DNA of 64,000 bases, taken from an uncultured archaeon (GTDB lineage Archaea > Thermoplasmatota > Penumbrarchaeia > JASLWR01). The notes beneath the pieces were generated by a model that was not told where the DNA came from, did no database searches, and worked only from the letters and a program-made list of their open reading frames with translations. The stretch's first letter is position 1. Each line of letters starts with the position of its first letter. This document shows, piece by piece, positions 8,978 to 52,918 of this stretch. Position numbers and translations under genes: made by a program. The stretch spans positions 211,849 through 275,848 of the forward strand of contig CAYFHS010000001.1 in NCBI GenBank assembly GCA_964342815.1. The letters are read 5' to 3'.

Positions 8978-9022
8978 GGCCTCAATCCCTTTTACTTTTA
9001 TTTTATCGGACCGTGAAGTTGT

Positions 9023-9829: not shown

Positions 9830-9961
9830 CCTATCACTTATTCTAATTTTTATGTACCTTTTTTAGGTTTGAAACGGTCCCGGGCGTGGTAAATTGTCTG
9901 TTCGATTATATACTTTCCTGTCTGTTTGCTGTGATCGAGAGCATCATTAGTAGATTATTTT

Positions 9962-10423: not shown

Positions 10424-10486
10424 GGTATCAACCCCGTTATTCTTTTTCAAATGGGTCACGGACAACGGAAATTCTGTGACCTGATG

Positions 10487-10709: not shown

Positions 10710-10805
10710 GGATTTGTCGAAACGCAGCTCACTGCGAAAAGTTGAATAGCCATCGGGTCATTAAGGAACCTCTCCTATCTCTCAGTGCGGATCGAGGTTA
10801 CAGTA

Positions 10806-11462: not shown

Positions 11463-11562
11463 GATGCAGACGTTTCTATCTGAACCTTTTAGGTGTGCTT
11501 CTTGGGCTAAAAGGATTGACGATGTGGAGCAGAAAATTTCTATTTCCGATTGAGAATACTCA

Positions 11563-36524: not shown

Positions 36525-37448
36525 TCAAATCACGGGTCTCGGCAGAAGTCCCGCCCTCTCCGCTATCTCCGGTACCTTCTCCTCCCACATGATGGCCATG
36601 ATATGGGCTCCCGCCACGCCCTCGATCTTCTGTAGCCGCTCCAGCGTTTCGATAGCAATATTGAGACCTTCCGCCTTTTTGTCGCTTGCCGCCTTGAGCC
36701 TTTCTATTATCTCGTTCGGGACGTCCACTCCGGATACGAACCTCTGCATGTATCTCGCGGCGCCAACGGATTTGACCGGGATGACCCCTGCCATTATCTT
36801 CGCCTTCTTATGGAGCCCCGCCGCCCTTACCTCTTTCATCTTGTCCTCGAACTTGTCTATGTCGAATATCCCCTGGGTCTGGATGAAATCCGCACCTGCA
36901 ACGATCTTCTTCGCCAATCGTGGGATCCTCACGTCAATCGGTTCGCTGAATGGGCTCCAGACTGCGCCGATATGGAGTTTCGGAGAAATCTTTATCTCAT
37001 CCCCGTTGCAGAATTTGCCCTCGTCCCGCATGTTCTTGACCATCTGGAGAAGCTGCATGGAATCCAGGTCATAGACTCCCTTTGATCCGGGATGGTTCCC
37101 CAGGGTCTGGTGATCTCCGGTAAGGCATAACAGGTTCGGCACTCCAAGCGCACCGGCGCCAAGTATATCGCTCTGCATCGCAATGCGGTTTCGGTCCCGG
37201 ACCGTCATTTGCATCACCGGCTCCAGTCCTTCTCGTATCAGTAAAGCGGCCGTAGCTAGAGAGGAAATCCGGACTACCGCGGTCTGGTTGTCGGTGATGT
37301 TTGCTGCGTCTACGGCTCCCTTCAAGTGCCCGATATTTTTTATCACTCCCTCTATTCCGCAGTGTTTCGGCGGTCCCAGTTCACCGGTCACAGCGAAGTT
37401 ACCTTTGGCCATTACCTTTTCCAACCGTCCATCAGAATTGAACACCAT
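36525..37448 (-). CDS. metF: 5,10-methylenetetrahydrofolate reductase, catalytic subunit
   Basis: VTGELGPPK, DAANITDN, PVMQMTVRDRNRIAMQSDILGA, LCLTGDH, AGADFIQTQ, GAHIMA. Confidence 0.95.
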   Translation of the reverse strand: MVFNSDGRLEKVMAKGNFAVTGELGPPKHCGIEGVIKNIGHLKGAVDAANITDNQTAVVRISSLATAALLIREGLEPVMQMTVRDRNRIAMQSDILGAGALGVPNLLCLTGDHQTLGNHPGSKGVYDLDSMQLLQMVKNMRDEGKFCNGDEIKISPKLHIGAVWSPFSEPIDVRIPRLAKKIVAGADFIQTQGIFDIDKFEDKMKEVRAAGLHKKAKIMAGVIPVKSVGAARYMQRFVSGVDVPNEIIERLKAASDKKAEGLNIAIETLERLQKIEGVAGAHIMAIMWEEKVPEIAERAGLLPRPVI

Positions 37449-38137
37449 TACGCATCACCCTCCTGCTCTATTACGAGATCTTCCCTGACTATCTTTCGGG
37501 GTCCTTTATGACCGGCCGCTCGCCAATCGTTAGGGGGTTGGATCTCCTCAAACTTCTTCTCATCCCCACGTTCCCTGAGTCTTTCGAATATAAGATACCA
37601 GGCGCAGTCTATGTCCTTGTCCACCTCACATTTCCCGTCGGACGTAGTTCCTCCGCACGGGCCATTGAGTAGGCTCTTGGAACACCTCGCCACCGGGCAT
37701 ATACCACCGGTGAGATGTAAACGACAACTACCGCAGGCACGACAGTTCTCCACCCATATCCCCTGTTCTTCCGGCATTCCCATGAATGTCGTGTTCAGGG
37801 CCGGGACGATAATGTTGTCAGGGAACATGCCAGCAATAGTCTGTACGCCTATGCCGCAGGCCATGGATAATACCACGTCATGGGATTCGATTTCTGTTTT
37901 TATTGCATCCACGAACTCCTTCTCGCACTGCCTTTCTATGGTATTCTCATCGAAAGTCATTTCCGCATCATCCATTTTGCATTTTATTCGCAGTGCTGAA
38001 GATAGAATACCTACTTCTTTTTCACCACCTGTAGAACATACTGTAACGCAGGTTCCACATCCCAAGACCAGGACCTTTTCATACTTCTCAAGCATGTTCA
38101 TTATCTCTTCTACAGGTTTTCTTTCCGCTACTATCAA
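37448..38137 (-). CDS. metV: MetV (MTHFR C-terminal-domain-like FeS/Zn subunit)
   Basis: LGCGTCVTVC...ERQCE...ACGIG and CRACGSC...GICPVARCSKSLLNGPCGG...CEV...CAW. TTG start with an AGGTGA RBS; coupled to metF. Confidence 0.9.
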   Translation of the reverse strand: MIVAERKPVEEIMNMLEKYEKVLVLGCGTCVTVCSTGGEKEVGILSSALRIKCKMDDAEMTFDENTIERQCEKEFVDAIKTEIESHDVVLSMACGIGVQTIAGMFPDNIIVPALNTTFMGMPEEQGIWVENCRACGSCRLHLTGGICPVARCSKSLLNGPCGGTTSDGKCEVDKDIDCAWYLIFERLRERGDEKKFEEIQPPNDWRAAGHKGPRKIVREDLVIEQEGDA

Positions 38138-38568
38138 TTTTTCACCTTACCTTTTAGATTAATGGGGGAAGGACCTAGTTGTTTTATCTTCTCCGTCATC
38201 TCTAACGCTACTTGGGCGAACCTGGGACCAGCCGAGGTAGACATGTTGTACATCTCCAAACGATCACCTCCGATCCCAAGCTCTTCCAATAATTTCTTCG
38301 CGTATTGTACCCGTTTTTTAGCACGATAGTTACCCTCGATAAAATGACAACTCCCCTCTTCACATCCTGCTACATAAACGCCGTCCGCACCGTCTTCGAA
38401 CGCTCTCAATAGGTAGAGAATATCTATCTTTCCACTGCATGGTAACCGAATTATCTTGATATTGGCCGGATATTTCAATCTCATAGTACCCGCAGTATCC
38501 GCGGCCCCGTAAGCGCAGTAGTGACAGCAGTAAGCAATGATCTTGGGCTCGAAGTCCTTACCGCTCAT
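38134..38568 (-). CDS. mvhD: MvhD-type [2Fe-2S] protein (copy 1)
   Basis: CCHYCAYGAAD, LPCSGK, GADGVYVAGCEEGSCHF and GN..A motifs; ATG 38568 overlaps the hdrL stop. Confidence 0.93.
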   Translation of the reverse strand: MSGKDFEPKIIAYCCHYCAYGAADTAGTMRLKYPANIKIIRLPCSGKIDILYLLRAFEDGADGVYVAGCEEGSCHFIEGNYRAKKRVQYAKKLLEELGIGGDRLEMYNMSTSAGPRFAQVALEMTEKIKQLGPSPINLKGKVKN

Positions 38569-41500
38569 TTTATCCCCTCCGCCAGGATTCCGTCGCATTG
38601 GGCCAATATCTGGTTATCCTTATAGTGTTGTAATTGAATGGCCTTGGCTGGGCACTCGCCTACACAGATGCCGCATCCCTGACATTCTGCAGCAATGATC
38701 TGTGCAACACCCTCTTCATTGATGCTCGGCACATTATATGGGCACACTCGGACGCATGTTAGGCATCCTGCGCACAGATCTTTTTCTACAACGGTAATCG
38801 AGCCACCTATTTCCAGGTTATCTTTGGATAGTATGGATCCCACTCTTGCTGCGGCACCACTTGCCTGAGCCACCGTATCGGGTATGTCCTTGGGTCCCTG
38901 ACAGCAACCTGCAAGGAAAATACCACTGGTAAACGTATCGATAGGTCTTAATTTCGGATGGGCCTCCATCATAAACCCGTCCGCACTTCGTGATATCCTG
39001 AGGAGGTTTGCCATTTCTCCCGAGCCCTCACGGGGTACAATACCTGAAGCCAGCACTACCAGGTCCGCCTCGATATCAGATTGTCCTGCGGCCTTGACCA
39101 CAAGTTTACCATTATCTTTTATAACTTCAATCTCGTCGGACAATTGCCTTCTCCTATAATGAACTCCCTCCTCTTGAACCCTGACGTAAAACTCCTCGAA
39201 ACCCTTGCCAAAGGCACGCACGTCAGTATAATAAATCGTAACATCGGAATCGGGCATTTTTTCTCTCACGAGGTGTGCCTGTTTTGCCGTGTACATACAG
39301 CACACCCTGGAACAATGCTCATTTCCCGCCCCATCCCTGTCTCTCGACCCTACACATTGTATGAAAACCACTTTTTCGGGCTCCTTCCCGTTAATTTCTA
39401 TGTGTCCGCCTGTGGGGCCGGAAGCGGATACTAACCGTTCAAACTCGATGCCGGATATCACATTCTTGAGCTGATCGTATCCATATTCGGGTAACGATGC
39501 GGCATCGAAGAGATCAAACCCTGTTGCAACTACAATCGATCCCACATCAACCTCAATCATCTCTTCATTCATATTATGGTCAATCGCATCAGCCTCGCAG
39601 ACGGCTACACATTCATAACATTCCACGCAACCACCGCAATCCAAGCACCTTCTTGCTTCTTTAATGGCCTCTTCCAGGGAATAACCCAGCTCAACCTCCT
39701 GGAAATTGTTCTTCCTTTTATTGAGGGGAAGCATTCTCATTGGGATTTTCTTCCTCTTTTTTACATTTTCCACGGGAGGTTTGAAAACTGGCAGCATCTT
39801 ATCCCTGCCTTCTGTCAAATCAATTCCGTTGATATACCTATCGATGGATTCTGCCACTCTTTTTCCTGCCCCTATCGCTTCAATGATCGTGCCTGAACCC
39901 AATATTGCATCTCCGCCGGAAAAGACTCCCTTTACACTCGTCTCCAATGTAACCGGATCTACCTTTATAATACCTGTACGGGTTGTTTCAATTTTGAAAT
40001 CATCGGAAATCTCATCAAGAGCCACCTCCTGACCGATGGCATATATCAGAGAATCAACTTCCATAGTATATTCAGAGCCAGGTATCGGTAGTGGTTTTCT
40101 TCTACCGGTTTTATCTACATCCCCCAATTCCATTTTTACGCATTCGATAGCCTTGATCCGTCCATTTTCACTGATAAATTTTGTGGGGACAGTTAAAAAT
40201 TCCAATTTTACGCCTTCCTCAATGGTTTCATCAATTTCCCATTCGGGCTCGGCAGGCATTTCTTCTCTAGAACGACGATAGAGGATTTTAACATCTCCAG
40301 AGCCCAATCTCAAACATGATCTAGCGGTATCCAGGGCTGCGTTACCTCCTCCTATAACAGCCACTCTATTACCTATCTTGGGATAGGCTTCTTTTAATCC
40401 GCTCAACTTTATGGCACCCACAGGACATATCGCTGCACATTTGCCGCACCCTCTACACAATTCTTCCAAAATGTATGGGTTTTTCTTTCTGTCCGGTTTG
40501 ACGTCATTATCAGGTCTCCTCATATCAACAATCGTTTCATAGGGACACTCTTCCATACATAATCCGCAACCAAAACAGATTTCCGAACTTATTGATGCTA
40601 TCGGAGTTGTTTTTATTACCCCTAGATTAAGGTCTTTTAAAAATTCAATCGACTGGAATACTCCTTCCAATGACTCGGTCTCCAGGCCCGATTTTTTACC
40701 TTTTTGTGCACCTATAGCTAGGAAAACTGCCCTGTACCCTCTTTCCATGATCTCTTTGATGGTAATCTCTCTACCCACCTTCATATTCAGAAATATTCGA
40801 ATTCCAAGATTGGTTACATCGGTGATTTCTTTTTCAAGTATTTCCTTGGGCAATCTGAAGGTAGGAATTCCAAATCTCATCATGCCGCCCAGGACGGGCA
40901 TTTCCTCGAATATCGATACGTGGTATCCCAAAAGGGCCAAATCATTAGCGGCTGTAAGCCCTGCAGGTCCTCCACCTATTATGGCCACCTTCTCCGCCCG
41001 AGTATCGATTGGAGGGGTCTTGGCAATAGGAATCTCAAGTTCGAAATCCCCAACAAATCTTTTTATTTGAGCGATTCCTACCGGTTCGTCTATTTCTTTC
41101 CTGGTGCAGGCATTCTCACATGGCCTGTGGCAGACTCTTCCGCAAATCGATGGGAAGGGTAAATGTTCTTTTATTACCTTTAGGGCCTGATAGAACTTGC
41201 CTCTACTAACCAATGATACATACCCGGGGGCCCCGATTTGCGCCGGACATACACTCTTGCAGGGTTGTAAACCTTCCCTACTAATGGTATATTTTAATGG
41301 CACGGCCTGAGGAAATGGAACCGATATTGCATTTCTGTCATCCAAACCGAAATTAAACTCATTAGGAATGGCCACCGGACAGACCTTGGAACATTCTCCG
41401 CAGCCTATACACTTTTCCCAATCTACGTAAGTGGGTTTTTTCCTGATCTTTACATGGAAGTTACCTACATAACCATCGACGTTTTCAACCTCTGCACAGG

Positions 41501-42134
41501 TTATAAGTTCAATGTTAGGGTGCCTCCCCACATCCACCATTTTCGGAGTCAGAATACAAGCAGAACAATCTAGTGTTGGGAAGGTTTTATCCAACTGCGA
41601 CATTCTTCCACCCACACTGGGAGTTTTTTCCACCAAATATGTTTTATAGCCCATGTCCGCAATGTCCAACGCTGTCTGGATACCGGCGATTCCACCTCCG
41701 ATCACCAGCGCATTCGATGTCACACCAACCGATGTCATTTCCAGGGGCTCCAGATGGATTGCGCGGGCTACCGCGCCCCTGATCAGCTCAATTGCTTTTT
41801 CGGTCCCTATGGACTTGTCCCCGTGTACCCAGGAGCACTGTTCTCGGATATTGGCCATCTCGAATTGAAATGGATTCATTCCTGCCTCCTTACAGAGAGC
41901 ACGGAACGTAGGCTCATGCATCCTTGGGGAACACGAGGCTACGACGACACGATCCAGTTTCTCCTCACTAATGTCTTTTTTGATCATCTCCTGACCTGGA
42001 TCTGAGCACATGTACTTGTATTCCCTGCACAGCACCACTTTAGACAATGTACCTATCTCATTAACTACCTTGGGCACGTCGACCGTAGATGTGATATTGA
42101 TACCGCAGTCGCAGACATATACGCCAACCTTCAT
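38565..42134 (-). CDS. hdrL: HdrL-type protein: HdrA with an inserted GltD/NfnB-like NAD(P)H-flavin module and an extra ferredoxin insert
   Basis: HdrA motifs GVYVCDCG, GGGIAG, DCSACILTPK, FIQCVGSRD and CSRVCC. GltD module CGRVCHRPCE, GGGPAG, GGGNAALD, YRRS. Several CxxCxxCxxxCP clusters. Confidence 0.9.
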   Translation of the reverse strand: MKVGVYVCDCGINITSTVDVPKVVNEIGTLSKVVLCREYKYMCSDPGQEMIKKDISEEKLDRVVVASCSPRMHEPTFRALCKEAGMNPFQFEMANIREQCSWVHGDKSIGTEKAIELIRGAVARAIHLEPLEMTSVGVTSNALVIGGGIAGIQTALDIADMGYKTYLVEKTPSVGGRMSQLDKTFPTLDCSACILTPKMVDVGRHPNIELITCAEVENVDGYVGNFHVKIRKKPTYVDWEKCIGCGECSKVCPVAIPNEFNFGLDDRNAISVPFPQAVPLKYTISREGLQPCKSVCPAQIGAPGYVSLVSRGKFYQALKVIKEHLPFPSICGRVCHRPCENACTRKEIDEPVGIAQIKRFVGDFELEIPIAKTPPIDTRAEKVAIIGGGPAGLTAANDLALLGYHVSIFEEMPVLGGMMRFGIPTFRLPKEILEKEITDVTNLGIRIFLNMKVGREITIKEIMERGYRAVFLAIGAQKGKKSGLETESLEGVFQSIEFLKDLNLGVIKTTPIASISSEICFGCGLCMEECPYETIVDMRRPDNDVKPDRKKNPYILEELCRGCGKCAAICPVGAIKLSGLKEAYPKIGNRVAVIGGGNAALDTARSCLRLGSGDVKILYRRSREEMPAEPEWEIDETIEEGVKLEFLTVPTKFISENGRIKAIECVKMELGDVDKTGRRKPLPIPGSEYTMEVDSLIYAIGQEVALDEISDDFKIETTRTGIIKVDPVTLETSVKGVFSGGDAILGSGTIIEAIGAGKRVAESIDRYINGIDLTEGRDKMLPVFKPPVENVKKRKKIPMRMLPLNKRKNNFQEVELGYSLEEAIKEARRCLDCGGCVECYECVAVCEADAIDHNMNEEMIEVDVGSIVVATGFDLFDAASLPEYGYDQLKNVISGIEFERLVSASGPTGGHIEINGKEPEKVVFIQCVGSRDRDGAGNEHCSRVCCMYTAKQAHLVREKMPDSDVTIYYTDVRAFGKGFEEFYVRVQEEGVHYRRRQLSDEIEVIKDNGKLVVKAAGQSDIEADLVVLASGIVPREGSGEMANLLRISRSADGFMMEAHPKLRPIDTFTSGIFLAGCCQGPKDIPDTVAQASGAAARVGSILSKDNLEIGGSITVVEKDLCAGCLTCVRVCPYNVPSINEEGVAQIIAAECQGCGICVGECPAKAIQLQHYKDNQILAQCDGILAEGIK

Positions 42135-44159
42135 CTAGACCACCTCCAAGGCTGCTCCGACCATGGCTTTCAATTGTTCCAGCTTGAATCCTTTGACAAC
42201 GATGCCTTCTTTCGGGCATGTCGCCTGACATACCCCGCATCCCTGACAGGCCACTTCGGTAACTTCAACAGTTTTCTTTATCTCCCTGTTCCTAATGTAT
42301 TCGATCAAAGTAAGTGCATTATAAGGACACGGGTCGATACAATAAGCGCATCCGTCACAGTTCTTGTCAATTACAAATGAAATATGTGGTGCTAATTCCA
42401 CTTTGCCCTGGTCAAGAGGTATCAACGCCCTTGCTGCGGCTCCGGATGCCTGGGCCACCGTGTCCGGTATGTCCTTTGGCGATTGGGCACATCCTGCTAA
42501 AAATAAGCCAGGCGATATCGTATCCACTGGACGCAGTTTGGGATGGGCCTCCAGTAAGAAACCATCGGCACTCTGGGACAGTTTCAACACCTTGGCAACA
42601 CCCTCACTTGTGCTCAGTCGGGGGATAATGGCTGTCGCAAGGACCACGAGATCCGCTTCCAAGGGGGGAGTGTCTCCGCTTTTCACAATGAGCGGACCGT
42701 TTTCAGCACCGGGCGTTTTAGGCACGACCTCAAGGGGATCCTCCAGTTCCCTATGGATATAGACAACGCCTTCATCCTTGACCCGATTGTAAAATTCTTC
42801 AAAACCTTTTCCGAAGGCCCTGACATCCGTATATAGCACCGTTGTATCCGCATCCTGCAACCTCTCTCGAACAAGATGGGCATGCTTTGCAGTGTACATG
42901 CAGCATACTCTTGAACAGTATGAATTGCCCCCTTCGCACCTTTCTCTGGAGCCCACACATTGGATGAACACCACCTTTTCCGGGCGTTTCCCATCAATCA
43001 GTATCTCTCCCCCGGTTGGGCCGGAAGAAGAACAAATACGCTCGAACTCCAATCCCGTTATCACATTTTTATTAGAACCATATCCATACTGTAGATTTTG
43101 AGAGGGATCGTAAAGGTCAAAACCAGTAGCTACGATAATAGTCCCTACATCCAGTTCGATCTCTTCGTCTTTCAGATTGAAATCGATAGCATTTGTGGGA
43201 CAGGCTTCCTGGCATTTGGGTGCCTTTCCGCATTTGCCTCTCGTTACCATCAAACAACGATCTTTATCTATGGTAAATTTCAAAGGAACGGCCTGGGGAA
43301 ACGGTAGATAGGCCGAACCTCGCATACCGATATTCGCATCAAATTCGTTCGGAATCCTTCCCTTGAGGCGGCACGCTTCCGCACATTCTCCGCAACCGAC
43401 ACATTTCTCAATATCGATGTATCTCGATTTCTTTTTTATTTTAACAATAAAGTTGCCTATGTATCCCCCCACTTCCGTTACTTCAGCATAAGTGAGAAGT
43501 TCGATATTCGGGTGTCGGGCCGCATCAACCATTTTCGGGGTCAATATACATGCGGAACAATCCAGTGTTGGGAATGTTTTGTCCAGTTGCGCCATTCTCC
43601 CGCCTATGGACGGGGATTGTTCTACCAAATATACTTTAAAACCGTTTTCAGCAATATCAAGCGCGACCTGGATGCCAGCAATCCCGCCACCAATAACCAA
43701 AGCATTGGGTATGACCTCCACTTCTTTCTTCTCTAACGGCTCCAGTAACCGTGCTTTGGCCACTGCCATCCGTATTAAATCTTCAGCTTTTTCGGTAGCC
43801 TCTCGAGGCGTCTTATTGTGTACCCAGGAACAGTGCTCACGGATGTTAGTCATCTCGAAAAGATATGGATTAAGGCCTGCTTCCGACAGTGTGATTCTAA
43901 ATGTGGGCTCATGCATCCTGGGGGAGCACGAGGCTACAATAACCCGAGTCAAATCCATTTCTTTGATATCATCCTTTATTAGTTTTTGGCCTGGCTCGGA
44001 GCACATGTATTTATAAAAACGGCTCACGGCAACATCAGGAAGAGTTCCCGTATATTCCGCGACCTTTTTCACATCGACAACCGCCCCGATGTTTATGCCA
44101 CATTCACATACATAGACCCCAATTCTCACTCTGCTTGCGTTGTTAGCTCCATCCGACAT
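42135..44159 (-). CDS. hdrA: Heterodisulfide reductase subunit A (canonical size)
   Basis: All HdrA motifs (GVYVCECG, GGGIAG, DCSACILTPK, QCVGSR, CSRVCC, C-terminal 2x[4Fe-4S]). ATG 44159 preferred; the ORF extends to 44189. Confidence 0.95.
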   Translation of the reverse strand: MSDGANNASRVRIGVYVCECGINIGAVVDVKKVAEYTGTLPDVAVSRFYKYMCSEPGQKLIKDDIKEMDLTRVIVASCSPRMHEPTFRITLSEAGLNPYLFEMTNIREHCSWVHNKTPREATEKAEDLIRMAVAKARLLEPLEKKEVEVIPNALVIGGGIAGIQVALDIAENGFKVYLVEQSPSIGGRMAQLDKTFPTLDCSACILTPKMVDAARHPNIELLTYAEVTEVGGYIGNFIVKIKKKSRYIDIEKCVGCGECAEACRLKGRIPNEFDANIGMRGSAYLPFPQAVPLKFTIDKDRCLMVTRGKCGKAPKCQEACPTNAIDFNLKDEEIELDVGTIIVATGFDLYDPSQNLQYGYGSNKNVITGLEFERICSSSGPTGGEILIDGKRPEKVVFIQCVGSRERCEGGNSYCSRVCCMYTAKHAHLVRERLQDADTTVLYTDVRAFGKGFEEFYNRVKDEGVVYIHRELEDPLEVVPKTPGAENGPLIVKSGDTPPLEADLVVLATAIIPRLSTSEGVAKVLKLSQSADGFLLEAHPKLRPVDTISPGLFLAGCAQSPKDIPDTVAQASGAAARALIPLDQGKVELAPHISFVIDKNCDGCAYCIDPCPYNALTLIEYIRNREIKKTVEVTEVACQGCGVCQATCPKEGIVVKGFKLEQLKAMVGAALEVV

Positions 44160-44310
44160 CAGGATACCTTCATGATTAGGAGTTTCCACTCATCATTGTA
44201 ATAAAGCTTCAGTAGGCAAATATTACATCATCGACCGGGGGTCTTATGTTCCCTACTTACATATTATCCCCGAGAATTATGTATTAAGTGCCATAATTTT
44301 TGTCAGAAAT

Positions 44311-44342
44311 TATACAATAATCCAGAATCTGGTTGTTGTATA
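44311..44342. promoter_or_regulatory. Near-perfect palindrome upstream of the hdrA-hdrL-mvhD-metVF operon
   Basis: TATACAATAATCCAGA-A-TCTGGTTGTTGTATA; the arms differ by one mismatch and one indel. Confidence 0.5.
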
Positions 44343-44495
44343 TCTGATCACCAATCACAATACTATTAATTCTATTAATATCTTTTGAGATTTTTATTTT
44401 CTCACTTCGTTAGGGTGAAAAACGTTTTAAGAGAGGAAGAATGAGGTAAAAAATTGACTAGAGGTTCAATGAACTTAGATTAAAGAAGAACTTTA

Positions 44496-44668
44496 TCAAA
44501 ATGCTGCGTAAGACCTAGGGCCCCACATCTTCAGGGCTCCAACCATTTCATTCACTATTTTGGTAAACTTCGGCCTCTAGACTGCTGACACCAATTCCAC
44601 CCTGAATCTCTCACGCTAAGGGCTAAAATCCTTCAGCATCAGTTACATGGTCTCCGTCTGTTGTGTAC
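44496..44668 (-). pseudogene. mvhD: Decayed C-terminal remnant of a third mvhD
   Basis: Hand translation: ETM*LMLKDFSP*RERFRVELVSAV*RPKFTKIVNEMVGALKMWGP. This matches the MvhD C-terminus (..ERxRLEWVSAxEGxKFxxxVxEMxxxxKxLGP) but carries three in-frame stops and lacks the N-terminus. Confidence 0.75.
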
Positions 44669-45094
44669 TCATCTTTCCTTATTACTTACAGGTGAAGGAC
44701 CCAATTTTCTGATTTTCTCGGTCATATCCACAGCTACTTTTGCAAACTTGGGTCCCGAAGATGTGGAAATATAATGCATTTCTATCCTCTCGCTTTCCAA
44801 GCCGATTTCCACTAATAATTTTTTTAGATGTTCAACACGCCTTTTCGCCCGGAAATTGCCCTCTATAAAGTGGCAACTACCTTCCTCACATCCCGCCACA
44901 TAAACGCCGTCCGCACCATCCTCGAATGCTTTCAAAATATAGAGGATGTCTATTTTTCCGCTGCACGGTATCCTTATTATCTTGACATTGGTGGGATATT
45001 GTATCCTCATTGTGCCCGCCATATCTGCAGCTCCGTATGCGCAATAATGACAGCAGAAGGCAATAATCTTTGGCTCGAATCCCGAATCCGTCAT
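44669..45094 (-). CDS. mvhD: MvhD-type [2Fe-2S] protein (copy 2)
   Basis: CCHYCAYGAAD, IPCSGK, AGCEEGSCHF; very similar to copy 1; ATGA overlap with hdrL2. Confidence 0.93.
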   Translation of the reverse strand: MTDSGFEPKIIAFCCHYCAYGAADMAGTMRIQYPTNVKIIRIPCSGKIDILYILKAFEDGADGVYVAGCEEGSCHFIEGNFRAKRRVEHLKKLLVEIGLESERIEMHYISTSSGPKFAKVAVDMTEKIRKLGPSPVSNKER

Positions 45095-48000
45095 TCTCCA
45101 ACCTCTTTCAGTATAGCATTACATTGACCTAATAATTGATCATCTCGAAAATGCTGCAATTGAATTGCTTTGGCCGGACATTCACTTACACATATGCCAC
45201 ATCCCTGACATTCCGCCTCATCTATCCGGGCGACTCCTTCCTTCGAGATCTTCGGTGCGGAGTAAGGGCATACTCTTATACAAGTAAGGCAAGTAGCACA
45301 TTTATCCGGATCGACCACTGAAATAGTACCGCCTATTTCCAGCGACTCTTTGGAGAGAATCGTACCTGCCCTTGCTGCCGCGGCACTCGCCTGGGCGATG
45401 CTCTCATCAATGAACTTTGGAGAATGGGCCAAACCCGCGAGGAAGACACCGGGGGTAGCAAAGTCCACAGGGCGTAATTTCACATGGGCCTCTAAAAAGA
45501 ATCCGTCCTTCGTCATGGGCAGTTTCAACATCTGGGAGAGTTCTATTGCTCCATCCTGAGGGAGTATTGCATTACTTAACACTAACAGGTCCGGTATAAG
45601 TGTTATCTCTCTATTAAGTATTGGTTCACGAATAGATACCTGCAATCCTTCATCATCGCTCACTATAGGAAGGTTCTCATCATCATAACGTATGAAAATG
45701 ATACCCTTTTCAGCTGCTTCCCTGTAATATTTTTCTCTGAATCCATAGGTTCGAATATCCTTGTAGAGCACGTAGATGTTGGTGTCGGGACTCTGTTCCT
45801 TGATCTTCAACGCATTCTTTATGGCACCGCTGCAACATACCCTGCTGCAGTAGGTTCTCTCCTCTGTGCGTGAACCCACACATTGGATCATGACCACATT
45901 TTCTGAGTTAAATGTATTTTTTACTAGTTTCTCTTCGAGTTCCTTCCTCGTACAGACATTTTTATTTACTCCATAGAGATATTCGCTGGGAATATATTCT
46001 TTTCCTCCGATTGCTAAGATAATTATACCATGATCGAATTCGTTCTCCGCCGCATCATTTTGAATGATAGTTGTCTTAAAGTTACCAATAACACCATCGA
46101 TATTTTTTATCTTTACCCCTGTGGAAACATGGATCAATTCGTTCTCATGTACACGGGAAATTATATTTCGTAAAAACTCTTGGGGATCTTCACCACCTAA
46201 CATGTAATGTGTATTTAGTGCTGCACCCCCCAACTCATTTTCTCGTTCAATTAGAAATGTTTCATATCCCTGTGCCGATAATTCCAGAGCAGCAGTCATA
46301 CCGGTTATGCCGCCCCCGATAACCAATCCTCTTGGGACAATGTCAATTTTTCTTTTCATTAGGGGATGATTTAATAAGGATTTTGAAACTGCAACTCTGA
46401 CGAGATCCATGGCTTTCCTTGTAGCCTCTTCCGGTTCGGTATTGTGTACCCAGGAACATTGTTCTCTTATATTCGCCATTTCAAATAAATAAGGGTTGAG
46501 ACCGGCTTCCTGAATCGTATTTTGAAATAACGGCTCGTGGGTTCGCGGAGTACACGCGGAAACGACGACTCGGTTCAGGTCATTTTCTTCAATAATATCC
46601 ATCATCTTTTTCTGTGTATCTTGGGAGCAGGTATAAATGAACTCCTCGGCCTTGACCACATTAGGTAACGTTTTTGCATATTCGACAACCGCAGGTACAT
46701 CTACCACCGAGCCGATATTGATTCCGCAATTACAAACGAAGACCCCTATCCGAGGCTTCTCGGCGGTGATATCCTTCTCGGGAGGGTATTCTTTAACAGA
46801 AACAAGGCTATTCCTTTCAGATGAAATAATACTCGATGCTTTGGCGGCGGCCCCGGAAGCTTCAATAACGGTCTCGGGAATATTCTTCGGACTCGAAAAA
46901 GCACCGCAAACATATATGCCTGGTCGAGAGCTTGTCATAGGAGAAAAATATTTAGTTGAGCAGAATCCGGACTCGTTCAGATCTATACCAAGTATATCGC
47001 TTATCGCGTCATTCGACCTCGGTGGTATCAATCCCGTTGACAGAACCACCATTTCAAAGACTTCTTGTTTCATCTCCTCGTTTTCCAAATAACTCAAAAT
47101 AAGATTGTTAGTGTGGGCATCTTCTTCGATGTTGGGAATCCTGCAGCGAGTAAACTTAATACCGTATTTTTCTTTTGCCCTGATGTAATAGTCATCGAAC
47201 TCCTTTCCGAAAGCTCTGATGTCCATGAAAAAGATATGTGTTTCAAGCCCCTCCACGTGTTCTTGAGCCAGAAGTGCTTCTTTCATCGCTGCCATGCAGC
47301 ATACGCTGGAACAGTATTCATTACTTCGTTCATCGCGCGAACCGACGCATTGTAAAAACGCAATTTTTCGAGGCTCCTTCTCATCCGACAGTCGTCGGAC
47401 CTTTCCCTGATATGGGCCTGAAGCGCTCAATATCCGTTCGAATTGAAGATTTGTGATCACATTCGGGAATCTTCTATAACCATATTCGTTATCTATATCC
47501 GGTTCGTAAAGGTCAAAACCAGTAGATACGACTATGGAACCAACATTCAGTTCCAGTTCCGTAGGGACCATCTCATGGTCAACGGCCTCCGCTTCGCAGC
47601 TCTTGACACATTCTAAACATTCCGAACAGATACCACAGCTCAAACAACGGTTTGCTTCGGCAATTGCCTCTTCTTCGGTTAATCCCAATTCTACTTCCTC
47701 AAAACTGGAAAGTCTTTCCTCCAGTGTGATGGTCCTTGCCTTCCTTCGTTTCTCGATTTGCACGTCTTCGATATCTACCTGACTGCTTATATCGGGTAAA
47801 TCCTCACTCTTCAAGCTCTCCTCCAAATTCTCAGCGCCCTGGAGGAATTTGTCTATGGTAATGGCCGCCCTTTCACCGGCTGCAATGGCATCAATGACCG
47901 TTGATGGACCGGTAATGAAATCCCCTCCTGCAAAAACTCCCGGCGTATTGGTCATGAGTGTTGTTGGATTCACTGCCAACCGTTCCCATTTAGTTATCTC

Positions 48001-49524
48001 GAATTGGGCCTCCTCGGGAAGGAACGATATATCGGGAGCCTGACTCACGGCCGATATAACCATATCAACATCCACCACGAATTCCGAGCCTTCAATTGGG
48101 ATTGGCCTTCTCCTTCCACTCTTATCCGGTTCCCCTAACTTCATTTTTATACATTCTATTTTGGACACTGTCTCTCCATTATCAGATAAGATCCGAGTGG
48201 GGCTGCATAGAAAATGGAACTTCACTCCTTCCTCACCGGCCTCTTCGACCTCCTTTGGATCCACAGGCATCTCATTTCTTGAGCGTCTATATAATAGAAA
48301 TACCTCATTAATCCCCATTCTCCTTGCGCTTCTGGCACAATCCATTGCAGTATTTCCCCCTCCTATCACCGCCACCCTGTCCTTTAGCTCGACGGGCTCC
48401 CCTAAATTAATCTTCCTCATGAATGTGACGCCGTGATATACTCCTTTCAAATCTTCCCCTTCAATTCCAAGTTTAAAGGGGTTGTGGGCTCCCGCTGCAA
48501 TAAAAATGGCATCGTAATCTTTTTGAAGTCCCTGAAGTTTGATCTTCTCCCCTATAGGCGTGTCCAACTTAACCTCCACACCCAGACTGATTATATTATC
48601 GATTTCCCTGCGAAGGACCTCCCTTGGTAGACGATAGGATGGAATTCCCACCCGCATCATGCCACCTAATACCGGAAGTGCTTCGAATACCGTTGTCTGG
48701 TAGCCTTCCACCGTGAGATTATATGCGGCGGTAAGACCTGCGGGACCACCGCCGATGACAGCTACCTTTTGAGGTTTCTTCTCCTTTTTTTTCGGGAGAA
48801 TGGGCTCGTCCTCGAAAGTTGGTTCCAAGTCCGCTAAAAAACGTTTTAATGCACTGATGGCCAAGGGATCGTCCACTTCCCCCCGTTTACAGTTCAGTTC
48901 ACAGGGATGGGTGCAAATCCTCCCGCATATCCCGGGAAAAGGATGGGCTTTCTTCACAAGTTCGAGAGCCTCACGGAACTTTCTCTCCCTGATTAAAGCT
49001 ACATAACCCTGTACGTTCGTCTTGGTGGGACAGGCAACTTTGCATGGGGATTTACCCCGCTTTTGGATGGTATATTTTAACGGGACCGCCTGAGGGAAGG
49101 GTACATAGATCGCGTTTTTATTGGCGAGTTCCATATCAAACTCACTGATGATTTCCACGGGACAGTTCTTAGCACACTCACCACATCCTATGCATCTACT
49201 CTCATCTACATAGCGGGGATGCCTTAAAACCGTCACTTTGAAATTGCCCTCTTTCCCTTCTACGCAACTAATTTCGGATAATGTGAGAAGTTCGATATTT
49301 GGGTGTCTTGCGACCTCAACGAGCTTTGGTGAGAGGATACACATGGAGCAGTCGTTTGTGGGGAAAGTCTTATCCAGCTGGGCCATTCTACCCCCGATGG
49401 CCGGTGATCTTTCAACGAGGAATACCTTAAAACCGCTATTAGCCAGGTCCAATGCGCTTTGCATTCCCCCGATACCCCCGCCGATAACTAGAACCGCACC
49501 TATCTTTTCATCCATTCTATGCAC
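45091..49524 (-). CDS. hdrL: Large HdrL-type fusion: HdrA-GltD/NfnB-like-HdrA (three predicted flavin sites)
   Basis: GGGIGG plus DCSMCILSPK; GltD module (CGRICTHPCE, GGGPAG, GGGNTAMD, YRRS); a second HdrA unit (GVFVCNCG, GGGITG, QCVGSR, CSRVCC) and a C-terminal ferredoxin. The start may be 49515. Confidence 0.9.
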   Translation of the reverse strand: MHRMDEKIGAVLVIGGGIGGMQSALDLANSGFKVFLVERSPAIGGRMAQLDKTFPTNDCSMCILSPKLVEVARHPNIELLTLSEISCVEGKEGNFKVTVLRHPRYVDESRCIGCGECAKNCPVEIISEFDMELANKNAIYVPFPQAVPLKYTIQKRGKSPCKVACPTKTNVQGYVALIRERKFREALELVKKAHPFPGICGRICTHPCELNCKRGEVDDPLAISALKRFLADLEPTFEDEPILPKKKEKKPQKVAVIGGGPAGLTAAYNLTVEGYQTTVFEALPVLGGMMRVGIPSYRLPREVLRREIDNIISLGVEVKLDTPIGEKIKLQGLQKDYDAIFIAAGAHNPFKLGIEGEDLKGVYHGVTFMRKINLGEPVELKDRVAVIGGGNTAMDCARSARRMGINEVFLLYRRSRNEMPVDPKEVEEAGEEGVKFHFLCSPTRILSDNGETVSKIECIKMKLGEPDKSGRRRPIPIEGSEFVVDVDMVISAVSQAPDISFLPEEAQFEITKWERLAVNPTTLMTNTPGVFAGGDFITGPSTVIDAIAAGERAAITIDKFLQGAENLEESLKSEDLPDISSQVDIEDVQIEKRRKARTITLEERLSSFEEVELGLTEEEAIAEANRCLSCGICSECLECVKSCEAEAVDHEMVPTELELNVGSIVVSTGFDLYEPDIDNEYGYRRFPNVITNLQFERILSASGPYQGKVRRLSDEKEPRKIAFLQCVGSRDERSNEYCSSVCCMAAMKEALLAQEHVEGLETHIFFMDIRAFGKEFDDYYIRAKEKYGIKFTRCRIPNIEEDAHTNNLILSYLENEEMKQEVFEMVVLSTGLIPPRSNDAISDILGIDLNESGFCSTKYFSPMTSSRPGIYVCGAFSSPKNIPETVIEASGAAAKASSIISSERNSLVSVKEYPPEKDITAEKPRIGVFVCNCGINIGSVVDVPAVVEYAKTLPNVVKAEEFIYTCSQDTQKKMMDIIEENDLNRVVVSACTPRTHEPLFQNTIQEAGLNPYLFEMANIREQCSWVHNTEPEEATRKAMDLVRVAVSKSLLNHPLMKRKIDIVPRGLVIGGGITGMTAALELSAQGYETFLIERENELGGAALNTHYMLGGEDPQEFLRNIISRVHENELIHVSTGVKIKNIDGVIGNFKTTIIQNDAAENEFDHGIIILAIGGKEYIPSEYLYGVNKNVCTRKELEEKLVKNTFNSENVVMIQCVGSRTEERTYCSRVCCSGAIKNALKIKEQSPDTNIYVLYKDIRTYGFREKYYREAAEKGIIFIRYDDENLPIVSDDEGLQVSIREPILNREITLIPDLLVLSNAILPQDGAIELSQMLKLPMTKDGFFLEAHVKLRPVDFATPGVFLAGLAHSPKFIDESIAQASAAAARAGTILSKESLEIGGTISVVDPDKCATCLTCIRVCPYSAPKISKEGVARIDEAECQGCGICVSECPAKAIQLQHFRDDQLLGQCNAILKEVGE

Positions 49525-50421
49525 TCACTTTCCTTAAGAACTCGATTTTACGAAATAATGGCTTCACTTTCACATGTTTCTTGTTGACTGCCAGATCCCT
49601 ACGCGGGTGAAATCCCATGACCAGACCCAGGAGTTAAGTATAATATAGAACTGGTATATCATATTTGACATCGGCCTTTGCACCGATGGCAGGGTGATAT
49701 TCGTAATAGATAATATCACCGAACGAGCGGATCACAATCATAACATCCGTATTTGCCGCCTTGACATGATCGAGCTTCTGTTTCACCATATTGGTGGACG
49801 TGTCCTCCAAAAACGCCAATATACCGCTGCAGCAGCACTGAAGTCTATCCCGGTAAGAGACAGGCTCGGCTCCGGTGATCTCGATGAGTTTGTCCAGGCT
49901 CTCGGGAAAGTAAGGACTGTCGAAATGATCGAACAAATAGGTTGGCTTGATGTAATGCCATCCGTAATGAGGGGCGATCTTAATACCTGCCAGGGGATGC
50001 GTGAGCGCCTCTTTCACCTTGTCGAAACCGATCTCCTTAAAAGGAAGCGGATAACATTCTTTACCTTCACATTACCCTTGGAAACATGCCCCAGGTCGGA
50101 CAATTCCTCGTTGACCTTCTTTAACTCCTCTTCGCGGTCTCCGTCCGAGTAGTGCTTTGCCACTTTCGTGAGGTGACCCGAGCAGGCTCTGCAGAGGGTC
50201 ACAAGCTATTCCGCTTCTGCGAGACCGAAATTGCGTGCCGCCACTGCCATGGCGGGATGATGATGTACGCCATCTATAGGAAAACCACGGTATGAAAAAC
50301 CGAGGATGTCCACGATTTCTATCCCCAGTTTCGAGGCGATTTTTCTTGTGGAAAGTTCATAGTTGGAATCCCTGACGGATACCGTACCCCTCAAGAAAAG
50401 GGCGATCCCGTGTTTAATCAT
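49517..50421 (-). pseudogene. hdrB: Heterodisulfide reductase subunit B pseudogene
   Basis: HdrB-like text (NYELSTRKIASKLGIE, AARN, VTLCRAC, APHYG, RLQCC, IPVLYY*LLGL.MG) is broken by TAG at 50206-50208, a frameshift near 50040 and TAA at 49634-49636. The CCG-motif cysteines are lost (FLRG, FSYRG, VIRSFG). Confidence 0.88.
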
Positions 50422-50640
50422 CGTTGCCAATCCCCTTGATCGCGTCATGAATGCCTGCTTTTTCATTACTTCCTTTGGTTCCGAGATCTTGAATTCAGGT
50501 TACGACATTCCTTTCTTTGCCCTTACAGTATTTTCGAACTCACTGACCTCTCGTATGCGGCCGAACTTTTCCAGCAGGTCAACGCCGGCTCCCATTGCCT
50601 TTGGTAGATATCCTTCCTTGGGGATGAACTTTATTATAAC
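50422..50640 (-). pseudogene. hdrC: C-terminal remnant of hdrC
   Basis: KEGYLPKAMGAGVDLLEKFGRIREVSEFENTVRAKKGMS*PEFK resembles an HdrC C-terminus. There is an in-frame TAA at 50500-50502, and the ferredoxin-bearing N-terminal part is absent. Confidence 0.65.
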
Positions 50641-50773
50641 GATATATTTTTCTATATAAGCGTGATTAGTGTGTTGGTTATCGGTTATATATTCAATATT
50701 CCTATTTTTAGAAGCTAAAGGTATTAACACGATTCGATTCAGGCATATATTTGCGCTAAAGGAGAATACATAG

Positions 50774-52893: not shown

Positions 52894-52918
52894 CGGAATT
52901 GTTTATATAAAAACCCGG

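What the first reader, a model, noticed from the sequence alone, without database searches (positions are those of the whole stretch)
36525..50640. Possible HdrBC-independent, NAD(P)H-fed electron-bifurcating methylene-THF reductase (HdrA/HdrL-MvhD-MetVF)
Seen in sequence: hdrA, hdrL1, mvhD1, metV and metF are abutting or overlapping on one strand. Upstream, hdrL2-mvhD2 is intact while hdrC and hdrB are pseudogenes. Established: acetogens such as Moorella have an HdrCBA-MvhD-MetVF MTHFR complex, and HdrL is HdrA with a GltD-like NAD(P)H module. Inference: electrons enter through the HdrL module (YRRS motif suggests NADPH), bifurcate at the HdrA flavin to ferredoxin and pass via MvhD-MetV-MetF to methylene-THF. 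MetVF would replace HdrBC as the high-potential sink, which would explain why hdrBC is dispensable. The complex could also run in reverse during methyl oxidation. This would be a notable C1/energy-conservation route in a non-methanogenic Thermoplasmatota.
Basis: partly seen in the sequence, partly recalled or inferred. Interest (0 to 1): 0.8.

Follow-up and report, generated by a model that had tools for sequence, protein, structure and literature searches.

The report
HdrBC-less NADPH-linked methylene-folate reductase operon
An uncultured marine Thermoplasmatota archaeon has its only folate one-carbon reductase (MetVF) in one tight operon with electron-splitting HdrA-type flavoproteins that carry a built-in NADPH module and no HdrBC, an untested variant of an enzyme type known from acetate-forming bacteria.

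Summary
Observation confirmed. hdrA, hdrL1, mvhD1, metV and metF abut or overlap on the minus strand (36525-44189). Upstream, hdrL2-mvhD2 is intact. hdrB is a true pseudogene and only the tail of hdrC remains.

Interpretation partly supported. metF is the genome's only MTHFR, in a folate-type Wood-Ljungdahl pathway with Rnf. HdrL1 is a complete HdrA with an NfnB/GltD-type NADPH module inserted into its ferredoxin domain. The HdrA-HdrL-MvhD trio recurs in metagenomic relatives without HdrBC. There it sits in front of either MetVF or a GlcD-like dehydrogenase, so it looks like a portable module.

The dead hdrCB does not belong to the metVF unit. It belongs to a separate unit, hdrC-hdrB-hdrL2-mvhD2, which is intact in relatives. 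So "MetVF replaced HdrBC" does not explain its decay.

Three intact hdrCB pairs lie elsewhere in the genome. In the closest bacterial loci with an NfnB-type HdrA, hdrB lies in the cluster in 20 of 30.

Bifurcation to ferredoxin is inference only.

This scan has noted similar HdrB-less MetVF clusters before on other DNA. Verdict: new variant of a known kind, moderate interest.

The parts
36525..37448 (-). metF, methylene-THF reductase catalytic subunit (307 aa). It is the only MTHFR-family gene in the genome.
   Evidence: Pfam PF02219, E 7e-38. Single match in the own genome. Distant match to Thermus MTHFR 1v93. 84% identical to the same-genus ortholog.
37448..38137 (-). metV, Fe-S/Zn subunit of MetVF (229 aa, TTG start).
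   Evidence: Pfam PF12225, E 3e-36. 11 cysteines are invariant across 23 orthologs. No solved relative.
38134..38598 (-). mvhD1, [2Fe-2S] adaptor protein (154 aa; likely start at the second Met, 38568).
   Evidence: Pfam FlpD, E 9e-50. Four conserved Cys. Weak modelled contact with MetV.
38565..42134 (-). hdrL1 (1189 aa): a complete HdrA (N-terminal domain, FAD domain, Cys197-type pair, both ferredoxin domains) with a 542-aa NfnB/GltD-like insertion.
   Evidence: PDB matches: residues 2-287 and 832-1187 to HdrA 5odc/7bkb; residues 289-830 to NfnB 4ylf_B, 5jca_L and GltD. Cysteine table.
39645..41270 (-). NfnB/GltD-like NADPH-FAD-2[4Fe-4S] module inside hdrL1, with an extra 2x[4Fe-4S] ferredoxin-like insert (HdrL1 residues about 515-575).
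   Evidence: Alignment to T. maritima NfnB, Stn and 9bov, including the YRRSREEMPA motif. Pfam Fer4_20, Pyr_redox_2 and Fer4 dicluster.
42135..44189 (-). hdrA, canonical full-length HdrA (684 aa; the true start may be the Met at residue 11).
   Evidence: 772 bits over its full length to methanogen HdrA 8rvu/5odc. All cluster cysteines present. 73% identical to the paralog on C15.
44190..44668 (.). 479-bp AT-rich spacer with T-runs after mvhD2 and TATA-like stretches before hdrA. Probable boundary between two transcription units.
   Evidence: Sequence read directly. Inference only; not tested with RNA.
44669..45094 (-). mvhD2 (141 aa), 73% identical to MvhD1.
   Evidence: Pfam FlpD, E 1.5e-52. 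Pairwise identity.
45091..49524 (-). hdrL2 (1477 aa), a fused pseudo-dimer. The first half is an HdrA without N-terminal domain that has the Cys197-type pair and an NfnB-like insert. The second half is an HdrA with N-terminal domain and C-terminal ferredoxin domain but without Cys197 or inserted ferredoxin.
   Evidence: PDB matches in four stretches. Cysteine table. 49% identical over 1497 aa to the C41 paralog that still has hdrCB.
49532..50448 (-). hdrB pseudogene.
   Evidence: tblastn with intact HdrB of C4 and C41: two in-frame stops, one frameshift, lost cysteines. Weak CCG hit on one fragment. 80% nt identity to C4 hdrCB.
50449..50640 (-). hdrC remnant: only the C-terminal third, with an in-frame stop. 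The Fe-S-binding N-terminal part is gone.
   Evidence: tblastn with HdrC of C4 (65% over 71 aa) and of C41. A divergent glycosyltransferase gene starts at 50774.

Best explanation
hdrA-hdrL1-mvhD1-metV-metF is one operon. It encodes the only methylene-tetrahydrofolate reductase of a folate-type Wood-Ljungdahl pathway.

Proposed wiring. MetF (flavin, folate site) and MetV (Fe-S) connect through the [2Fe-2S] protein MvhD to a pair of HdrA-type flavoproteins. One is a canonical HdrA. The other is HdrL1, a complete HdrA whose inserted ferredoxin domain is interrupted by an NfnB/GltD-type NADPH-FAD-2[4Fe-4S] module.

Most likely mechanism. NADPH is oxidised on that module. The electrons reach an HdrA flavin and are split. 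One path goes downhill via MvhD, MetV and MetF to methylene-THF (about -200 mV). The other goes uphill through the intact ferredoxin domain of the canonical HdrA to ferredoxin, which feeds Rnf. The reaction (2 NADPH + Fd_ox + CH2-THF) lies near equilibrium, so it could also run backwards in methyl oxidation. This unit needs no HdrBC.

What is shown: gene content, domain and cysteine integrity, recurrence of the layout, and the pathway context. What is inferred: complex formation, the NADPH preference, the coupling to ferredoxin, and which flavin splits the electrons.

The upstream psi-hdrC, psi-hdrB, hdrL2, mvhD2 stretch is a separate unit. It is a formerly HdrBC-containing NADPH-linked Hdr that has lost its disulfide-reducing subunits.

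My odds: MetVF forms a complex with MvhD and the HdrA-type proteins, 0.8. NAD(P)H is a substrate, 0.75. The complex works without HdrBC, 0.6. It is coupled to ferredoxin, 0.5.
For: Operon: five co-directional genes with touching or overlapping ends.

Pathway context: a single MTHFR in the genome. fhs, folD, a fused CODH/ACS, Pterin_bind proteins and Rnf are present. Mch, McrA and complex-I/Ech-type genes were not found.

Domain integrity: HdrA and HdrL1 keep every HdrA cluster cysteine and the FAD motif. The HdrL1 insert aligns to NADPH-dependent NfnB and Stn, including YRR(S/T)xxEMPA.

Synteny in Thermoplasmatota relatives: HdrA-type, MvhD, MetV, MetF in G001, G006, G010 and G014, with no hdrCB next to them; in G005 the same genes in a looser order, metF not seen on the short contig. 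The closest HdrL1 homolog (67% identity) sits in HdrA-MvhD-HdrL-MvhD-MetV-MetF without HdrBC.

Portability: the same HdrA(about 650 aa)-HdrL(about 1190-1212 aa) gene pair, with MvhD genes nearby, lies in clusters with a GlcD-like flavoprotein (directly in front of it in two of the four contigs seen) on other contigs. That fits a module serving substrates near -200 mV. The donor module in front of MetVF is swapped for a [NiFe] hydrogenase in a same-family genome, while MetF stays 83% identical.

MvhD1-MetV model: weak support. ipSAE 0.43 against a best control of 0.23. That mark was reached by 58 of 80 solved complexes and 2 of 110 mismatched pairs, but at 0.60 or under by only 7 of those 80 and by both mismatches. 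The runs agree in at least 85% of contacts, and the partner's pLDDT is at least 78. My own alignments were used.

Literature: type IV MetFV-HdrCBA-MvhD enzymes oxidise NADH at HdrA (PMC8760232, PMC5861303). HdrA with an NfnB insert and MetFV-HdrA-MvhD clusters in archaea are noted in PMC9012536.
Against: Among the closest bacterial MetV loci with an NfnB-type HdrA, 20 of 30 also carry hdrB in the cluster, so HdrBC is the rule there. Three intact hdrCB pairs exist elsewhere in this genome and could in principle be borrowed.

The Moorella enzyme has never been shown to reduce ferredoxin (PMC8760232).

The NfnB module occupies the arm that is the ferredoxin exit in solved HdrA (PMC9012536). The electron path is therefore not the canonical one, and a plain non-bifurcating wire is possible.

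The same-genus relative uses a fused tandem HdrL in place of HdrA plus HdrL1, so the exact subunit set is not conserved.

The interface model gives only weak support.
Confidence: 0.55

Rival explanations
1. The complex is a regular type IV enzyme that borrows HdrBC encoded elsewhere (contig C4, C41 or the hdrACB-frd cluster just upstream of the window). It uses an unknown disulfide, possibly a lipoyl protein, as co-substrate in place of ferredoxin.
For: Three intact hdrC-hdrB pairs in the genome. hdrB is inside the cluster in 20 of 30 bacterial NfnB-type loci. Tandem HdrL homologs in relatives are preceded by hdrCB and often lie near LplA/GcvH-like genes.
Against: Each intact hdrCB sits in a tight operon with its own HdrA-type gene. 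The closest archaeal contexts of both MetV and HdrL1 lack hdrCB. The only hdrCB near metVF has been allowed to decay.
Confidence: 0.2
2. The proteins form a non-bifurcating NADPH:methylene-THF oxidoreductase. The HdrA-type flavins and clusters act only as a wire, which makes it functionally like the RnfC2-MetVF (type III) enzyme of Acetobacterium woodii.
For: NADPH to methylene-THF is exergonic on its own (PMC8760232). The NfnB-like flavin has only one Fe-S exit here, as in GltD. The same-genus fused HdrL offers a single linear path.
Against: A linear wire would not need two complete HdrA cores with all six clusters each, nor an intact ferredoxin domain on the separate HdrA. The HdrA-HdrL pair is conserved as a pair. 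Known HdrA enzymes are bifurcating (PMC5861303).
Confidence: 0.15
3. MetVF works alone (type II, reduced ferredoxin as donor), and the neighbouring Hdr genes serve another function. Alternatively, the locus is in decay like its hdrCB.
For: MetVF alone reduces methylene-THF with reduced ferredoxin in vitro in several acetogens (PMC8760232, PMC8515935). There are pseudogenes in the region.
Against: Overlapping gene ends. HdrA-type and MvhD genes lie directly upstream of MetV in 41 of 47 well-flanked bacterial loci and in most relatives. All seven genes are intact with their ligands. metF is the only MTHFR of an otherwise complete pathway.
Confidence: 0.07

Closest known systems
Type IV (Hdr-type) methylene-THF reductase MetFV-HdrCBA-MvhD of Moorella thermoacetica and Sporomusa ovata (Mock et al. 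2014 as described in PMC8760232, PMC5861303, PMC9430772)
   Same: MetF, MetV, MvhD and HdrA-type flavoprotein genes in one cluster. It lies in a Wood-Ljungdahl pathway. A pyridine nucleotide is thought to be oxidised on the HdrA-type subunit. A second redox partner is suspected.
   Different: No HdrB or HdrC in the unit. There are two separate HdrA-type proteins, one with an NfnB-type NADPH module, where Moorella has one fused double HdrA. The host is an archaeon.
HdrL of Desulfobacterium autotrophicum (PMC2702500) and the NfnB-inserted HdrA9-11 of ANME-1 (PMC9012536)
   Same: An HdrA with a roughly 500-aa GltD/NfnB-like insertion in the inserted ferredoxin domain, followed by mvhD.
   Different: Those were described next to dsr genes or alone, not next to metVF. 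Here Cys replaces the selenocysteine of the bacterial forms. HdrL1 also carries an extra 2x[4Fe-4S] insert.
MetFV-HdrA-MvhD gene clusters of 'Ca. Syntrophoarchaeum' (mentioned in PMC9012536)
   Same: Archaeal MetFV next to HdrA and MvhD, discussed as a possible bifurcating or confurcating unit.
   Different: Those organisms use methanopterin, and no NfnB-type module is described in the cluster. This genome has a folate pathway (fhs, folD).
MvhAGD-HdrABC of methanogens (PDB 5odc, 8rvu, 7bkb)
   Same: The HdrA core is about 60% identical with all clusters present. MvhD acts as [2Fe-2S] adaptor on the C-terminal ferredoxin domain.
   Different: No hydrogenase and no HdrBC. MvhD would lead out to MetVF instead of leading in from MvhAG.
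NfnAB transhydrogenase (PDB 4ylf, 5jca) and GltD
   Same: The insert has the NfnB fold elements: two [4Fe-4S], an FAD site and an NADPH site with the YRR motif.
   Different: No NfnA partner. The two clusters merge into HdrA's ferredoxin domain, so the flavin has a single Fe-S exit, as in GltD.
Type III RnfC2-MetVF of Acetobacterium woodii (PMC8760232)
   Same: MetVF is given a dedicated pyridine-nucleotide-oxidising subunit encoded next to it.
   Different: The donor module is of HdrA/NfnB type, not RnfC type. The A. woodii enzyme is not bifurcating.

Membership tests
Type IV MTHFR (MetFV-HdrCBA-MvhD) | Adjacent metF (PF02219) and metV (PF12225) | tested here: met
Type IV MTHFR (MetFV-HdrCBA-MvhD) | mvhD and an HdrA-type flavoprotein gene in the same cluster | tested here: met
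Type IV MTHFR (MetFV-HdrCBA-MvhD) | Functional hdrB and hdrC in the cluster | tested here: not met
   The only nearby copies are a pseudogene and a fragment, and they belong to the upstream unit.
Type IV MTHFR (MetFV-HdrCBA-MvhD) | NADH:viologen and viologen:methylene-THF activities of the purified complex | not testable with these tools
   Needs biochemistry.
HdrL / NfnB-inserted HdrA | Complete HdrA core (FAD motif, N-terminal, TrxR-domain and ferredoxin-domain cysteines) | tested here: met
HdrL / NfnB-inserted HdrA | A roughly 500-aa GltD/NfnB-like insertion inside the inserted ferredoxin domain | tested here: met
   HdrL1 residues 289-830 lie between HdrA positions about 291 and 304. HdrL2 residues 158-640.
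HdrL / NfnB-inserted HdrA | mvhD directly downstream | tested here: met
NfnB-type bifurcating NADPH module | Two [4Fe-4S] motifs, an FAD Rossmann motif, and an NADPH Rossmann motif with YRR(S/T) | tested here: met
   Alignment to 4ylf_B, 8oh5_C and 9bov_A.
NfnB-type bifurcating NADPH module | An NfnA-type partner ([2Fe-2S], second FAD, NAD site) providing the second exit | tested here: not met
   No such gene among the cluster's Pfam assignments. The rest of the genome was not searched for NfnA.
Canonical MvhAGD-HdrABC | mvhA/mvhG hydrogenase genes and hdrBC alongside hdrA | tested here: not met
   The only [NiFe] large subunit is on contig C15. No hdrBC in the unit.
Type III MTHFR (RnfC2-MetVF) | An RnfC-like NADH subunit gene next to metVF | tested here: not met
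   The neighbours are MvhD and HdrA-type genes only.
Type II MTHFR (stand-alone MetVF) | metVF without further redox subunit genes in the operon | tested here: not met
   Three redox genes lie immediately upstream with overlapping ends.

The most novel reading that the evidence does not exclude
HdrA plus HdrL (NfnB-inserted HdrA) plus MvhD is a portable, HdrBC-free NADPH/ferredoxin electron-bifurcating cassette. In it, two flavins are joined through what are normally their low-potential arms. MvhD plugs the cassette into interchangeable two-electron enzymes working near -200 mV, namely MetVF here and GlcD-type 2-hydroxyacid dehydrogenases in relatives. That would define a fifth MTHFR type and a general new class of HdrA-based bifurcating enzymes. 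It would also supply the long-sought ferredoxin-coupled MTHFR of the Wood-Ljungdahl pathway.
Probability: 0.35. Interest if true: 0.75.

Novelty: new variant of a known kind. Interest (0 to 1): 0.5.

Why it matters
Which electron partners drive the methylene-THF reductase step has been an open point in Wood-Ljungdahl bioenergetics since the 1970s. The Hdr-type enzyme of Moorella still has an unknown second acceptor (PMC8760232, PMC5861303). This variant has no HdrBC and has a built-in NADPH site, which leaves few candidates for the third substrate. It offers a five-subunit target in which NADPH-, ferredoxin- and folate-dependence can be tested directly. Homologs of its HdrL subunit are very abundant in sediment metagenomes: more than 6,500 proteins at E <= 1e-50 among the 8,000 candidates scored. 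The answer would therefore bear on carbon and energy budgets of common benthic archaea (MBG-D/Thermoprofundales-like) and of Chloroflexota and Desulfobacterota. The apparent portability of the HdrA-HdrL-MvhD module would also be a useful rule for reading the many unexplained Hdr paralogs.

Tried and rejected
Nothing can be said about RNA.
- Solved structures: no relative of MetV in the PDB, so the MvhD-MetV contact cannot be judged by homology.
- MetV tree (quick search, SH-aLRT only): Thermoplasmatota rows interleave with bacteria near the base of a Chloroflexota-rich clade. Many forks are open and several branches are long. Neither a single origin nor a direction of transfer can be claimed.
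- Upstream context in the same-genus genome G001: the contig ends 130 bp before its hdrL, so the presence of hdrCB there is unknown. Its HdrB hits lie on other contigs or 40 kb away.
- G051 locus (L013): my ORF picking did not recover MetV, and I left it out.
- Methyl-oxidation idea: no MttB-family methyltransferase was found in an 89%-complete genome. This gives no specific support for methylotrophy. Other methyltransferase families were not searched.
- 'Sequencing error' as the cause of the broken hdrB: rejected. Essential cysteines are substituted and protein identity has fallen much further than DNA identity.
- One 14-kb operon from psi-hdrC to metF: judged less likely because of the 479-bp AT-rich spacer with T-runs. 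Not tested with RNA.
- The sigma-70 promoter scan was not used, because the host is an archaeon.


Full report
WHAT IS THERE

On the minus strand of the window, Pfam and PDB sequence searches identify the following genes in transcription order:
- hdrA, 44189-42135, 684 aa.
- hdrL1, 42134-38565, 1189 aa.
- mvhD1, 38598-38134.
- metV, 38137-37448.
- metF, 37448-36525.

The gene ends touch or overlap. The hdrA stop is adjacent to the hdrL1 start, mvhD1 and metV overlap by 4 nt, and metV and metF share one base.

Upstream lies a 479-bp AT-rich spacer with T-runs. Beyond it are hdrL2 (49524-45091, 1477 aa) and mvhD2 (45094-44669). Before them lie a broken hdrB and the tail of hdrC.

THE PSEUDOGENES

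Intact HdrB proteins from contigs C4 and C41 align along the whole stretch 50448-49532. The alignment crosses two in-frame stops, a frameshift and a 2-aa deletion. The cysteines that hold the non-cubane clusters are replaced: CCG to YRG, HYGC to HYGW, CPFC to RSFG.

Only about the last 65 residues of HdrC remain, with a stop. The Fe-S part is gone, and a divergent glycosyltransferase gene begins at 50774.

The remnant is 80% identical in DNA to the C4 hdrCB but only 65-70% in protein. That is the signature of relaxed selection, not of assembly error.

DOMAIN ANATOMY

HdrA is a canonical full-length HdrA. It scores 772 bits over its whole length against methanogen HdrA 8rvu and has all cluster cysteines.

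HdrL1 is also a complete HdrA. [quoted passage not shown]
- Between the two halves of its inserted ferredoxin domain sits a 542-aa module. This module aligns to T. maritima NfnB (E 4e-104), P. furiosus NfnI-L, the Stn subunit and GltD.
- The alignment includes the Fe-S motifs, both Rossmann motifs and the segment YRRSREEMPA. NADPH-using NfnB and Stn have the same segment as YRRT..EMPA. There is no acidic residue at the end of the second strand, which by general Rossmann-fold knowledge favours NADPH. This is a probable preference, not a proven one.
- HdrL1 carries an extra 2x[4Fe-4S] insert (residues about 515-575) that HdrL2 lacks.

HdrL2 is a fused pseudo-dimer.
[quoted passage not shown] - This is the 'complementary loss' that Chadwick et al. 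describe for fused or tandem HdrA, including the Moorella enzyme. The same paper describes NfnB inserts in ANME-1 HdrA9-11 (PMC9012536). The name HdrL comes from Desulfobacterium autotrophicum (PMC2702500).

GENOME CONTEXT

The genome is 4.35 Mb and 88.9% complete.

Found:
- A single MTHFR, which is this metF.
- fhs and folD.
- A CdhC/ACS domain in a 1384-aa frame.
- Two Pterin_bind proteins.
- Rnf.
- One [NiFe] hydrogenase on C15.
- Seven MvhD domains.

Not found: Mch, McrA, MttB, and a complex-I 49-kDa/Ech-type subunit.

This is a folate-type Wood-Ljungdahl organism with Rnf, and this operon supplies its reductase step. Names given by sources to HdrL1 homologs point to MBG-D/Thermoprofundales-like Thermoplasmatota: Thermoplasmatales SCGC AB-539-N05 and Thermoplasmata M8B2D.

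IS HdrBC REALLY DISPENSABLE?

Three intact hdrC-hdrB pairs exist elsewhere:
- On C4, in front of a split-HdrA/Flx cluster.
- On C41, in front of a 1630-aa HdrL::MvhD fusion that is 49% identical to HdrL2.
- On C1, in an hdrACB-fumarate-reductase cluster ending about 0.65 kb upstream of the window start.

Each pair has its own HdrA-type gene. Borrowing is not excluded, but nothing suggests it.

More important is the context of the tandem HdrL2-type homologs (1538-1581 aa) on metagenome contigs. They are regularly preceded by hdrC and hdrB and followed by mvhD, often beside LplA or GcvH-like genes and with no metVF. The window's psi-hdrC, psi-hdrB, hdrL2, mvhD2 stretch is therefore the decayed form of that separate unit.

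The metVF unit, by contrast, has no hdrCB in its closest homologous contexts:
- The nearest HdrL1 homolog (67% identity) lies in HdrA(664)-MvhD-HdrL(1184)-MvhD-MetV-MetF. That contig repeats with a period of 8240 bp, perhaps an assembly artefact.
- Thermoplasmatota relatives G001, G006, G010 and G014 show HdrA-type, MvhD, MetV, MetF with nothing Hdr-like downstream, and G005 has the same genes in a looser order on a short contig that ends before any metF.

The narrower claim, that the metVF unit has no HdrBC of its own, holds.

HOW COMMON IS THE LAYOUT?

A scan of one genome per species returned 80 bacterial loci with the closest MetV, mostly Chloroflexota/Anaerolineae and Desulfobacterota. 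Of these, 47 have at least 7 kb upstream and 4 kb downstream:
- 41 have HdrA-type and MvhD genes directly upstream of MetV.
- 30 of those carry an NfnB-like insert in a tandem HdrA.
- 20 of these 30 also have hdrB in the cluster, and 10 do not within the limits used.

The NfnB-type HdrA-MvhD-MetVF layout is thus the dominant bacterial form, usually with HdrCB, and HdrB-less versions recur. Marine Chloroflexi clusters of this kind were published as hdrABC-mvhD-metVF (PMC5736913).

This scan's own earlier notes list many such clusters in other genomes: 243 notes in at least 218 genomes contain the search words. I treat them as leads only.

In 61 Thermoplasmatota genomes searched, MetV was found in 10.

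MODULARITY

The same-genus genome has a single fused tandem HdrL (1543 aa, with the extra ferredoxin insert) in place of HdrA plus HdrL1.

A same-family genome has a [NiFe] hydrogenase small subunit, large subunit and HycI directly in front of a different MetV and an 83%-identical MetF.

On other contigs, the pair HdrA(about 650 aa)-HdrL(about 1190-1212 aa) stands in clusters with a GlcD-like FAD oxidase, directly in front of MvhD and that oxidase in two contigs, often with Flx-like and Mvh genes nearby.

Two conclusions follow. First, genes upstream of MetVF encode its exchangeable electron partner. Second, HdrA-HdrL-MvhD is a portable module. By textbook redox potentials, methylene/methyl-THF (about -200 mV, PMC8760232) and pyruvate/lactate-type couples (about -190 mV) are nearly the same. 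That fits one module serving both substrates.

MECHANISM

The proposal is NADPH to the NfnB-like FAD, then Fe-S clusters to an HdrA flavin. From there one branch runs through MvhD [2Fe-2S], MetV and MetF to methylene-THF. The other runs to ferredoxin through the intact inserted ferredoxin domain of the canonical HdrA.

The sum, 2 NADPH + Fd_ox + CH2-THF, is close to equilibrium and hence reversible. The ferredoxin would feed Rnf.

Caveats:
- In solved Mvh-Hdr, MvhD is on the input arm and the inserted ferredoxin domain is the low-potential exit (PMC9012536). Here the NADPH module is spliced into that exit arm, and MvhD would lead out to MetVF. The arms have changed roles.
- The NfnB-like flavin has only one Fe-S exit (no NfnA), as in GltD. 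It is therefore more likely a feeder than the splitting site.
- The fused form in the sister genome offers a single linear path. A non-bifurcating NADPH:methylene-THF wire therefore remains a real rival.

A model of MetV with MvhD1 gave weak support only. The ipSAE was 0.43 against a best control of 0.23. That mark was reached by 58 of 80 solved complexes and 2 of 110 mismatched pairs, but at 0.60 or under by only 7 of the 80 and by both mismatches. The runs agree in at least 85% of contacts, and the partner's pLDDT is at least 78. My own alignments were used.

COMPARISON WITH WHAT IS KNOWN, AND VERDICT

The closest described system is the type IV MetFV-HdrCBA-MvhD reductase. This locus meets the MetF, MetV, MvhD and HdrA features and fails the HdrBC feature. 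It should therefore be filed as a variant that probably works like type IV, not as a member.

Its parts have each been described separately in the papers I could search:
- NfnB-inserted HdrA (HdrL).
- Archaeal MetFV-HdrA-MvhD clusters.
- A folate Wood-Ljungdahl pathway with MetVF in Thermoplasmatota (PMC11287216).

I did not find the combination described: a canonical HdrA plus HdrL1 plus MvhD plus MetVF without HdrBC. I also did not find the portability of the HdrA-HdrL pair described. No biochemistry exists for any HdrBC-less form.

I rate it a new variant of a known kind, with interest 0.5.

Noticed in passing
own genome, contig C41:7100-13368 (outside the window): hdrC (171 aa), hdrB (304 aa) and a 1630-aa HdrL with MvhD fused to its C-terminus. 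This is the intact paralog of the window's psi-hdrC, psi-hdrB, hdrL2, mvhD2 unit (49% identity to HdrL2).
   Followed up: partly
L014:4624-9431 (genome G003, same family): [NiFe] hydrogenase small subunit, large subunit and HycI protease lie directly upstream of a divergent MetV (42% identity) and a MetF 83% identical to this one. This looks like a hydrogenase-linked MetVF in a close relative. A second MetF-like gene lies at 10326-11294.
   Followed up: partly
L098, L099, L100 (metagenome contigs), genes at about 6045-11639 and upstream: The HdrA(about 648 aa)-HdrL(1212 aa) pair is conserved next to Flx-like genes, several MvhD genes and a GlcD-like FAD oxidase, not metVF. In other contigs MvhD-GlcD-like-CCG protein follows the pair, with LplA nearby.
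   Followed up: partly
L101:4417-11617 and two further contigs: Tandem HdrL2-type genes preceded by hdrC and hdrB often sit beside lipoate-protein ligase (LplA) and GcvH-like genes. This hints that a lipoyl protein may be the disulfide substrate of those HdrBC.
   Followed up: no
L018-L097 (bacterial loci), MvhD genes just upstream of MetV: In 43 of 71 bacterial MvhD genes next to MetV, an in-frame TGA stands at the position of a conserved cysteine (VAG-U-xxGxCH or CCxx-U-AY). This is probably selenocysteine. The archaeal MvhD1 and MvhD2 have Cys there.
   Followed up: partly
metagenome contig carrying P0002: A 15.4-kb contig repeats the block HdrA-MvhD-HdrL-MvhD-MetV-MetF with a period of 8240 bp. 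It is either a tandem duplication or a circular or collapsed assembly artefact.
   Followed up: no
window 26917-31944 and 31941-35174, minus strand: Two very large overlapping-end ORFs: a 1675-aa protein with at least 10 FG-GAP repeats, and a 1077-aa protein with no Pfam match. PKD-domain and probable surface proteins also lie at 52141-54958.
   Followed up: no
window 50774-52102, plus strand: A GT4-family glycosyltransferase gene starts where the N-terminal two thirds of hdrC should be. The deletion that truncated hdrC may be tied to this junction. A 227-aa minus-strand ORF (50500-51183) overlapping it has no family match and is probably spurious.
   Followed up: no
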